Assembly (NCBI RefSeq): GCF_009914755.1
Contig: NC_060925.1
DNA from: the human T2T-CHM13v2.0 reference genome, Homo sapiens
Strand: one strand, 5' to 3'
Length of the DNA: 64,000 bases
Part shown: positions 1 to 2,930 of the stretch, piece after piece
Numbering within the stretch: position 1 is the stretch's first letter
Layout of the letters: each line of letters begins with the position of its first letter
Notes under the pieces: model-generated
The model's input: the letters and a program-made list of their open reading frames with translations, nothing else
The model's database searches: none
What the model was told of the DNA's origin: nothing
Made by a program: the position numbers and the translations under genes

Positions 1-147
1 GCACTTGGAAACACATTCTTAAAAGTGGTAAATATAATAAAATGAAGTCATTAGTGTGGACTCTAATCCAATATGACTGGTGTCCTCATAAGGAGAGTTA
101 GGACACAGATGGGTACAGAGGGAAGACCATGTAAAGACACAGGAAAG
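1..147 (+). mobile_element. MLT1B-like MaLR LTR, 5' half
   Basis: ctaatccaatatgactggtgtcctcataagg...gggaagaccatgtaaagacacagg matches the recalled MLT1B/C consensus; stops at the L1MA insertion point. Confidence 0.8.
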
Positions 148-594
148 CACTGCAAAGAAAATAATCAGCAAAATAAAAAAGTAGCTTTTTCCCCCCAATT
201 CTCAATGGGAAAAAAAATTTGCAAACCATTTATCTGATGGGTGGTTAATATCCAAAAATTATAAAGAACACATACAACTCAACAGTATAAAAACAAATAA
301 CCTAATTAAATTGGCAAAGGACCCTAGTAGACATTTCTCCAAGGAAGATTAAAAATGTCCAACAGATGAAAGGGTCCTCAACATCATTAATCATCAGGGA
401 AATGCAAATCAAAATCAAAGATGTCACCTCACATCTGTTGGATTGCTATTATCAAAAAGTCAAAAGATAACAAATGTTGGTGAGGGCGTGGAGACAAAGG
501 AGCCCTGTACACTGTTGGTGGGAATGTAGATTGGTGGAGTCATTGTGAAAAACAGTATTGAGATTTCTAAGCAAACAAAAATAGAACTATCATG
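148..594 (+). mobile_element. Old L1MA/L1MB, ORF2 3' region (partner of 2298-2820)
   Basis: ttgcaaaccatttatctgat..., cagggaaatgcaaatcaaaa, acactgttggtgggaatgta, aaaaatagaactatcatg are diverged L1 ORF2 3' motifs. Confidence 0.85.
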
Positions 595-764
595 TCAGAC
601 ACTGAGAACAATGAGTATAAAAACTTGGAAACATCAGAACAATCCTATCATCAAGGAATGTCTAGAAGGCCATAATGGCTGGCATTTAAAGAAGAAGAGA
701 AATTTGGGCAGGACATAATCATAGGGTTTTGTAAGACATAGTAAAAAATTTGGATTTTACTTAC
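595..764 (-). mobile_element. L2 fragment (partner of 2821-2930)
   Basis: Reverse complement taaaatccaaattttttactatgtcttacaaaaccctatgat...ccagccattatggccttct resembles the L2 3' region. Confidence 0.65.
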
Positions 765-902
765 CGTATTAGTTTGCAGGGGTTGCCATAACAAATTACC
801 ACTGTGGCTTCTACAACAGAAACTTATTTTCTCACAATTATGTGGTTTTTTTTTTCTGAGGCTCTTTCCTTGGCTTGTAGGTGGCCATCTTCTCCCTGAG
901 TC
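765..902 (-). mobile_element. MLT1B-like LTR, 3' half
   Basis: Reverse complement gactcagggagaagatggccacctacaagccaagg...ttgttatggcaaccctgcaaactaatac is the MLT1 3' end. Confidence 0.8.
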
Positions 903-2290
903 TTTTTTTTTTTTTTTTTTTTTTTTTTTTTTTTTTTTTTTTTTTAGAATCTGGAGCTTACTTATCATGATTTTTTTTTTTTTTTTTATCATACTTTAAG
1001 TTTTAGGGTACATGTGCACCTTGTGCAGGTTAGTTACATATGTATACATGTGCCATGCTGGTGCGCTGCACCCACTAACTCGTCATCTAGCATTAGGTAT
1101 ATCTCCCAATGCTATCCCTCCCCCCTCCCCCGACCCCACCACAGTCCCCAGAGTATGATATTCCCCTTCCTGTGTCCATGTGATCTCAATGTTCAATTCC
1201 CACCTATGAGTGAGAATATGCGGTGTTTGGTTTTTTGTTCTTGCGATAGTTTACTGAGAATGATGATTTCCAATTTCATCCATGTCCCTACAAAGGACAT
1301 GAACTCACCATTTTTTATGGCTGCATAGTATTCCATGATGTATATGTGCCACATTTTCTTAATCCAGTCTATCATTGTTGGACATTTGGGTTGGTTCCAA
1401 GTCTTTGCTATTGTGAATAATGCCACAATAAACATACGTGTGCATGTGTCTTTATAGCAGCATGATTTATAGTCATTTGGGTATATACCCAGTAATGGGA
1501 TGGCTGGGTCAAATGGTATTTCTAGTTCTAGATCCCTGAGGAATCGCCACACTGACTTCCACAATGGTCGAACCAGTTTACAGTCCCACCAACAGTGTAA
1601 AAGTGTTCCTATTTCTCCGCATCCTCTCCAGCACCTGTTGTTTCCTGACTTTTTAATGATTGCCATTCTAACTAGTGTGAGATGGTATCTCATAGTGGTT
1701 TTGATTTGCATTTCTCTGATGGCCAGTGATGATGAGCATTTTTTCATGTGTTTTTTGGCTGCATAAATGTCTTCTTTTGAGAAGTGTCTGTTCATGTCCT
1801 TCGCCCACTTTTTGATGGGGTTGTTTGTTTTTTTCTTGTAAATTTGTTTGAGTTCATTGTAGATTCTGGATATTAGCCCTTTGTCAGATGAGTAGGTTGC
1901 GAAAATTTTCTCCCATTTTGTAGGTTGCCTGTTCACTCTGATGGTAGTTTCTTTTTCTGTGCAGAAGCTCTTTAGTTTAATTAGATCCCATTTGTCAATT
2001 TTGTCTTTTGTTGCCATTGCTTTTGGTGTTTTGGACAGGAAGTCCTTGCCCATGCCTATGTCCTGAATGGTAATGCCTAGGTTTTCTTCTAGGGTTTTTA
2101 TGGTTTTAGGTCTAACGTTTAAATCTTTAATCCATCTTGAATTGATTTTTGTATAAGGTGTAAGGAAGGGATCCAGTTTCAGCTTCCTACATATGGCTAG
2201 CCAGTTTTCCCAGCACCATTTATTAAATAGGGAATATACACAATAAAATTTATTTAAAAAAATAAAGACCCTATTTAATAAATGGTGCTG
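903..2290 (-). mobile_element. Young 5'-truncated L1 (L1PA2/early L1HS-like) with short 3' transduction and complex 5' junction
   Basis: Uninterrupted ORF2 C-terminus 1193-2053 ending FSLIGGN; near-consensus 3'UTR with GAG at the Ta-diagnostic triplet; T43 (903-945) and T17 (971-987); TSD ctgagtcttt at 896-905 and 2288-2297. Confidence 0.95.
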
Positions 2291-2297
2291 AGTCTTT

Positions 2298-2820
2298 ATT
2301 TTTTTAAATAAATTTTATTGTGTATATTTAAGGTATACAACATGATATTAGGCGATGCATAGAGATTGCAAAATGGTTACTATCATGAAGTAAATTAACT
2401 ATCATGAAGTGAATATCCATCATCTTGTTATCCATTATGTTTGTTTTTGTGGCAAGAGGAGATAAAATCTCACTTTGCAAGAATTCCAAATACAGCCCAA
2501 TGTTGTTGCCTATACTCCTGATGTTGCACATTAGATCTCTAGAGTTATTCATTCAACCTATTTGGTATGATACTTTGTATCCTCTGACCTACATCTCTTC
2601 AATTCCCCCTCCCATCACCACTGTTTTACTCTCTAACTCTGTATATTTTACTTTTAAAAACGTTTTTCTATGTCTGGCTTATTTCACTTAGCATGTCCTC
2701 CAGGTTCATCCACGTTGTGGCAAATGACAAGATCTTTCTTTTAAAAGGCTAAATAATATTAGCCATGGTTCCTTTATCCAATTATCCATCAACAGACACT
2801 TAGGTTGTTTCCATCTCTTG
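2298..2820 (-). mobile_element. Old L1MA 3' end
   Basis: tttattgtgtatatttaaggtatacaacatgat...tgcacattagatctctaga...ggcttatttcacttagcat. Confidence 0.85.
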
Positions 2821-2930
2821 TTCCTACAGTAGCTTGTCAGAGTTCTCTCATGTTGATTATCACATTGTTATAAATATTATCTGTTTCCCCTACTAGATTG
2901 TGAGCTTCTAAGGAACAGGACCAGGATTAG
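2821..2930 (+). mobile_element. L2 3' fragment
   Basis: ttatcacattg...ctgtttcccctactagattgtgagcttctaaggaacagg. Confidence 0.65.

What the first reader, a model, noticed from the sequence alone, without database searches (positions are those of the whole stretch)
133..2930. Old genomic inversion (~595-2820) revealed by three repeats split into opposite orientations
Seen: MLT1B 5' half is plus (1-147) and its 3' half minus (765-902); L1MA ORF2 end is plus (148-594) and its 3'UTR minus (2298-2820); L2 is minus at 595-764 and plus at 2821-2930. Flipping ~595-2820 and removing the young L1 makes all three collinear. It also restores a TSD around the L1MA (aaagacacaggaa at 133-145 versus aaagactcaggga). 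Inference: one inversion of about 0.85 kb (excluding the young L1), with roughly 100 bp lost at each breakpoint and no inverted repeats at the ends, which points to end-joining rather than homologous recombination.
Basis: partly seen in the sequence, partly recalled or inferred. Interest (0 to 1): 0.72.

Follow-up and report, generated by a model that had tools for sequence, protein, structure and literature searches.

The report
Fossil four-junction rearrangement in nested repeats
Three old jumping-gene remnants in a human intron lie split and facing opposite ways, with a short inverted duplicate 1.4 kb upstream, which likely records one faulty DNA-repair event in a distant primate ancestor; it is a clear example of a known kind of mutation with no sign of function.

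Summary
The rearrangement is real, but it is not the simple 595-2820 flip proposed.

Confirmed on natural copies from the same genome:
- The LTR halves are collinear, overlapping by 12 nt in 15 of 19 copies.
- The old L1 halves are collinear, with a modal gap of 106 nt.
- Two target-site duplications match across the flip.

Missed because it lies upstream of the window: 2813-2928 is an 87% identical inverted copy of -1401..-1512. That stretch lies inside a minus-strand L2 piece whose end abuts the L2 piece at 591-764 on an L2 profile and shares a 5-nt motif with it. So the "lost" 100 nt of L2 still exists.

Likely, 591-2820 keeps its orientation to the left flank, while about 1.9 kb (-1298..593) was flipped and moved in front of it, with a 115-135 nt templated insertion at the last junction. 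Short microhomologies mark three of four junctions.

Best reading: one microhomology-driven template-switching repair event (0.55). Rival: two nested inversions (0.27). The duplicates differ by about 10%, likely an early simian date. The young L1 came later. No outgroup genomes were available. Intronic, known class, low to moderate interest.

The parts
1..147 (+). Three more parts lie upstream of the window (position = G000:C1 position minus 78120000): X, -1298..-74 (+), single-copy DNA followed by the 5' part of the L2; junction 1 at -1300..-1291; and U, -1580..-1296 (minus), the 3' part of the L2 and likely donor of G
   Evidence: A. X: no other genome match for -1298..-313; L2 profile positions 195-350 at -228..-86, E 8.6e-10. 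Junction 1. U: z 7.7 on an L2 profile; tail z 4.1 on one profile and 0.2 on the other
148..593 (+). B: 5' piece of a 5'-truncated old L1 (L1MA-type), in sense orientation next to its TSD; right end of the likely flipped block
591..595 (.). Junction 2 (B to C): CATGT; CAT is shared with the L1, and the 5-mer equals the end of U up to one CpG transition
591..764 (-). C: middle part of the L2; continues the piece at -228..-86 across the LTR and abuts U
   Evidence: profile positions 361-495, E 4.6e-7
765..905 (-). D: 3' half of the LTR; 893-905 is the right TSD of the old L1; 760-764 is the LTR's TSD
896..2297 (-). Young 5'-truncated L1PA-type element (972-2232) inserted at the old L1's polyA/TSD border, with its own 10-nt TSD (896-905, 2288-2297); likely later than and unrelated to the rearrangement
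   Evidence: (3' end 94-99% identical to many copies)
2298..2820 (-). F: 3' piece and polyA of the old L1; about 106 nt of L1 between B and F are missing
2813..2820 (.). Junction 3 (F to G): ATCTCTTG, identical to U at 8 of 8 and to the commonest form in L1 relatives at 7 of 8
   Evidence: 12 of 28 relatives carry the 7-of-8 form, 0 of 28 the window's form
2813..2948 (+). G: inverted duplicate of U -1401..-1512, clear to 2928 and possibly to 2948; likely a templated insertion; junction 4 lies at its right end
   Evidence: 87% over 116 nt, E 8.5e-31; only other hit in the genome searches; 11 mismatches in 112 aligned

Best explanation
The locus holds four nested retroelements (L2, LTR, old L1, young L1) whose three older members are split into opposite orientations, most likely by one microhomology-driven, template-switching repair event that made four junctions within about 4.2 kb. 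Inferred ancestral order on the + strand: left flank, U, C, D, F, 106 nt of L1 now lost, then B, A and X reversed, then the right flank Z. Inferred path: (1) synthesis runs through U; (2) it switches strand at the far end of X and copies X, A, B; (3) it returns to the point it had left and copies C, D, F forward; (4) it anneals through the 7-of-8 match to U about 105 nt inside the left end and copies 115-135 nt backwards (G); (5) it rejoins Z. Net result: about 1.9 kb (-1298..593) flipped and moved, 591-2820 unflipped relative to the left flank, 106 nt lost, 115-135 nt gained. SHOWN: collinearity of the pieces, both TSDs, the duplicate, the junction motifs. INFERRED: the ancestral order, a single event, the enzymology and the date. 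On enzymology I put replicative MMBIR/FoSTeS at about 60 and rejoining of broken pieces by polymerase theta with an aborted first join at about 40. The date is after the old L1 and before the young L1, likely around the simian ancestor.
For: The duplicate is 87% identical, while 57 pairs of independent L2 copies average 64% with a maximum of 78.5%. U reaches beyond G on both sides; Z has no L2 tail (z -0.8 and -1.6), so U looks like the donor. C's end, well placed on the L2a-type profile (z 10.7), maps to position 364 of the second profile; U's -1300 extrapolates to 363. That is within 1 nt of the register set by the shared CAYGT, whose chance within 11 positions is 0.017. C+U aligns continuously (score 348, z 10.0) against 210 for C+G, and on natural copy L020 with a 5-nt indel at the join. 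So two junctions use the same ancestral point, which independent events would rarely do. Templated insertions with microhomology at inversion junctions are attributed to MMBIR in PMC7702065 (passages).
Against: No outgroup sequence was seen. The L2 is old and the profiles are thin (29 and 9 copies). With forced ends the offset between U and C was -14 on one profile consensus and -72 on the other, which fits U poorly. On 9 single copies it scattered from -435 to +203, with +45 and +54 on the two where C scored best in its expected place. C alone scores only z 1.0 on the second profile. Nothing shows that X once adjoined Z: no repeat spans the join, and the 6-nt AATAYG match (chance 0.009 in 21 positions) was picked after the fact and depends on G ending at 2948 rather than 2928. 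Junction 4 has no clear microhomology. U's tail is significant on one profile only. X beyond junction 1 has a weak L2-like score (z 2.0).
Confidence: 0.55

Rival explanations
1. Two nested inversions. First a staggered-break inversion of about -1296..2948 left about 245 nt of L2 duplicated in inverted orientation at both ends. Later the reader's inversion flipped 595-2820, deleting about 106 nt of L1 and about 105 nt of the right-hand duplicate.
For: It gives the same present sequence with the same four junctions. The two losses are of similar size. About 30% of human-chimpanzee inversions carry deletions (75 of 252, PMC2603318, passages). The fresh inverted repeat could have guided a second event to its border.
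Against: The second break must fall within a few nt of the first event's stagger point, inside sequence that would be continuous L2 at that time.
Confidence: 0.27
2. A simple 595-2820 inversion, with U an independent inverted L2 copy made similar to G by gene conversion or a separate local duplication.
For: Other minus-strand L2 pieces lie just upstream (-2698..-2938, -2969..-3449), so neighbouring L2 copies are common.
Against: It needs U to end by chance where C starts, and G to lack both its upstream 105 nt and its tail. Conversion between copies about 64% alike is unlikely by established knowledge.
Confidence: 0.1
3. The old L1 caused the inversion as it inserted (twin priming or insertion-associated breakage).
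For: One breakpoint with a 106-nt loss lies inside the L1. L1 activity can yield inversions and templated insertions at insertion sites (PMC11702581, passages).
Against: The 5' piece is in sense orientation next to its TSD, which twin priming does not give. The flipped DNA includes flanking LTR and L2. The duplicates are 10.5% apart (95% interval 5-19%) while the L1 pieces are 21-23% from their best relatives, so the event is likely younger than the insertion.
Confidence: 0.05
4. Assembly error, or a recent rearrangement in the sequenced line.
For: Only one assembly was seen.
Against: The duplicate created at junction 3 has diverged by 10%, which no recent event or misassembly gives.
Confidence: 0.02

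Closest known systems
FoSTeS/MMBIR complex rearrangements; inversions with templated insertions (PMC7702065, passages read)
   Same: Several junctions, short microhomology, a small deletion, an insertion templated from near a breakpoint.
   Different: Those are large clinical inversions with templated insertions of 8-59 nt in the table seen. This one spans about 4 kb, has a 115-135 nt insertion, is tens of millions of years old by inference, and was rebuilt from nested repeats alone.
Short-range template switching, four-point model (PMC7954356, passages read)
   Same: Strand-reversing switches that give inversions and inverted repeats in ape genomes.
   Different: That model has one switch-and-return at small scale; here two round trips (eight switch points) over kilobases are needed.
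Retrotransposon recombination-mediated inversion (PMC2603318, passages read)
   Same: Breakpoints lie in retroelements; TSDs reveal the ancestral state; a deletion accompanies the inversion.
   Different: No pair of same-family inverted elements spans the junctions; junctions 2 and 3 join L1 to L2.
Polymerase theta-mediated end joining with templated insertions (seen only as search listings; otherwise recalled)
   Same: Imperfect microhomology, and flank-templated insertion after an aborted join.
   Different: The insertion here is longer than the few tens of nt recalled as typical, and two internal fragments changed order.

Membership tests
Simple two-breakpoint inversion | Split elements become collinear on flipping one segment | tested here: met
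   LTR and old L1
Simple two-breakpoint inversion | Only two novel junctions, no other rearranged piece | tested here: not met
   inverted duplicate and U abutting C imply four junctions
NAHR / retrotransposon recombination-mediated inversion | Long inverted same-family repeats spanning both breakpoints, leaving chimeric elements | tested here: not met
   junctions 591 and 2820 join L1 to L2 with 3-8 nt matches; self-comparison of -4000..4500 shows no such pair
L1 twin-priming 5' inversion | Inversion confined to L1 sequence between the TSDs, antisense piece next to the 5' TSD | tested here: not met
   B is sense next to the TSD; flanking LTR and L2 are involved
FoSTeS/MMBIR complex rearrangement | Microhomology at junctions | tested here: met
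   3 nt at junctions 1 and 2, 7 of 8 at junction 3; none clear at junction 4
FoSTeS/MMBIR complex rearrangement | Templated segment copied from near a breakpoint | tested here: met
   G copies U about 105-215 nt from junction 1
FoSTeS/MMBIR complex rearrangement | All junctions arise in one event | tested here: inconclusive
   shared breakpoint on profiles, noisy on single copies
FoSTeS/MMBIR complex rearrangement | Ancestral, unrearranged allele observed | not testable with these tools
   the tool holds no relatives for this genome
FoSTeS/MMBIR complex rearrangement | Replicative origin rather than end joining of fragments | not testable with these tools
   both give the same fossil sequence

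The most novel reading that the evidence does not exclude
A miniature chromoanasynthesis-like event (four junctions, two reordered blocks, a 115-135 nt inverted templated insertion) occurred once in the germline of an early simian and became fixed. Its own duplicate dates it and nested transposons give its ancestral order without any outgroup, so a genome-wide scan for split nested repeats could catalogue and date such ancient complex repair scars.
Probability: 0.5. Interest if true: 0.42.

Novelty: new member of a known kind. Interest (0 to 1): 0.32.

Why it matters
It shows that an apparent simple old inversion can be a multi-junction repair product, readable and roughly datable from one genome. 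It would also be a homoplasy-free phylogenetic marker near the simian root. It lies in an intron of the lncRNA MGC27382, about 58 kb from the only annotated exon in the window and 56 kb from the annotated enhancer (hub annotation), and no function is suggested. One search for MGC27382 with 'inversion' returned a single listing on an unrelated subject (not opened). Locus lists in supplements, structural-variant databases and subscription papers were not seen, so absence from print is not established.

Tried and rejected
- Genome searches with C, G and U found no other L2 copies, only self and the G/U pair; single-sequence nhmmer gave only weak hits.
- The first L2 profile was contaminated by Alu beyond position 640 and was rebuilt after masking. 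The rebuilt L2a-type profile did not detect U or G by nhmmer, so a second profile was made from 9 copies; three of these (L020, L032, L011) were picked for resembling U, which favours U's fit.
- overran the breakpoints and was replaced.
- A repeat spanning the inferred X/Z join was sought and not found. The two top tiles are most likely self-hits to unmasked window 3101-3150; the next (222) is barely above the control (211).
- The forced-end test on single L2 copies was uninformative.
- Twin priming, NAHR and the young L1 as cause were rejected; the young L1 has a clean TSD 300-500 nt from the nearest junctions.
- Four L1 copies that might share the young L1's 25-nt tag did not.
- Nine literature searches listed no paper that, by title or abstract start, describes this locus.

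Full report
SCOPE. The window is human chr1 (hub annotation). The tools gave the window, searches of its own assembly and small regions of it, but no relatives and no repeat library. Positions below 1 lie upstream of the window (assembly position minus 78,120,000). Labels: U -1580..-1296, X -1298..-74, A -73..147, B 148-593, C 591-764, D 765-905, F 2298-2820, G 2813-2948, Z from 2949.

THE OBSERVATION: LTR. Its 5' half starts at -73. On 19 other copies the + piece to about 145 is followed by the reverse complement of 904-765. With the second piece started at 904, 15 of 19 pass the filter and all 15 overlap by 12 nt; wrong-strand scores over the 19 are 48-100 against 204-326 for those 15. That overlap is the old L1's TSD (133-145 against the reverse complement of 893-905, 11 of 13). 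The L2 on either side of the LTR is also continuous: -228..-86 (+) takes profile positions 195-350 and 765..651 (-) takes 361-495.

THE OBSERVATION: OLD L1. 148-593 and the reverse complement of 2298-2820 map in order on 28 of 48 loci (one element twice), median gap 106 nt, identities 79% and 77%. Five elements occur among the best hits of both halves. An orientation change between B and C-D-F is beyond reasonable doubt.

A genome search with 2821-2940 returned one other place, 1.4-1.5 kb upstream of the window on the minus strand. It is 87% identical over 116 nt (2813-2928 against -1401..-1512), far above independent L2 pairs (57 pairs, mean 64%, maximum 78.5%). The sequence after G has no tail.

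U ABUTS C. On a profile of 9 other copies U takes positions 366-650 and G starts near 471. C ends at 555 of the L2a-type profile, which equals 363 of the second. Extrapolated, window 591 sits at 364 and -1300 at 363, and the sequence has CATGT at 591-595 and CACGT at -1300..-1296, the same 5-mer up to a CpG transition. Against this: single old copies place C poorly, the forced-end offsets scatter widely, and the two profile consensuses give -14 and -72. I take the abutment as likely and good to about 15 nt, not as proven to the base.

RECONSTRUCTION. One L2 received the LTR, which received the old L1. The inferred ancestral + strand order is left flank, U, C, D, F, lost 106 nt, B', A', X', Z. 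The present order is left flank, U, X, A, B, C, D, F, G, Z. Junction 1 overlaps by CGT. Junction 2 shares CAT with the L1. Junction 3 carries 8 nt identical to U, of which 7 match the commonest L1 form (12 of 28 relatives; none has the window's form), so the primer annealed imperfectly or the exact homology is only 2 nt. Junction 4 is unresolved between 2928 and 2948. That X once touched Z is assumed: no repeat spans it, and a 6-nt match there is post hoc.

MECHANISM. Junctions 1 and 2 use the same ancestral point, and G is copied from 105-215 nt beside it. One repair event with serial microhomology-mediated template switches explains both (0.55). Breakage into pieces and rejoining by polymerase theta, with G as the trace of an aborted join of F to the left end, gives the same product; I count it within this reading as the less likely route. 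A simple inversion plus gene conversion (0.10), insertion-time rearrangement by the old L1 (0.05) and artefact (0.02) fit worse.

AGE. G and U differ at 11 of 112 aligned bases, 10.5% corrected (95% interval 5-19%), about 5% per copy, against 21-23% raw between the L1 pieces and their best relatives. By recalled neutral divergences (human to marmoset roughly 11-12%) this points to about the simian ancestor, with a wide margin. The young L1 is 94-99% identical at its 3' end to many copies and has a clean TSD away from the junctions, so it likely came afterwards.

KNOWN CONTEXT. PMC7702065 (passages) assigns 5 of 13 resolved large inversions to MMBIR on templated insertions and copy gains. PMC7954356 (passages) describes short-range template switching in apes. 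PMC2603318 (passages) reports deletions in 75 of 252 human-chimpanzee inversions and uses TSDs to infer the ancestral state. PMC8755829 (first of five parts) covers 17-33 nt microinversions. PMC11702581 (passages) covers L1-associated junctions. No supplements were opened; locus lists there could include this site.

VERDICT. A real, old, complex micro-rearrangement of a known class, larger and more intricate than first reported, intronic and without evidence of function. Interest 0.32.

Noticed in passing
window 2211-2328: The young L1 has a complex 5' junction. In L1 sense, after the TSD come 22 nt of antisense L1 (2269-2290, the reverse complement of 2211-2232), then 37 nt of inverted flank (2233-2269, the reverse complement of 2292-2328), both 100%, then the L1 body. 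A 3-nt ATT match to L1 at the last join is seen in two other window copies. This likely reflects a very short twin-primed cDNA followed by fold-back synthesis on the flank.
   Followed up: partly
window 903-987; G000:C1:158843918-158843942 (L098:219-243): The young L1 has two polyA tracts with 25 nt between them, likely a short 3' transduction. The tag occurs at one other place in the genome with 2 mismatches (control 0), where no L1 lies beside it in the 1.8 kb fetched. This is either the empty site of a lost source element or chance.
   Followed up: partly
window -228..2820: Four-level nesting: L2 holds the LTR, which holds the old L1, whose polyA/TSD border holds the young L1; the two L1 TSDs overlap at 896-905.
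   Followed up: yes
window -2698..-2938, -2969..-3449 (minus) and 3317-3521 (plus): Further L2 fragments flank the rearranged region; an Alu lies at about -2617..-2258.
   Followed up: no
G000:C3:24568208-24570503 (L025): Another old L1 whose ORF2-end and 3' parts match on opposite strands, possibly a 5'-inverted insertion or another small inversion.
   Followed up: no
window -1543..-1513: A (GTTT)n microsatellite has expanded in U just past the end of clear identity with G, blurring G's right end.
   Followed up: partly
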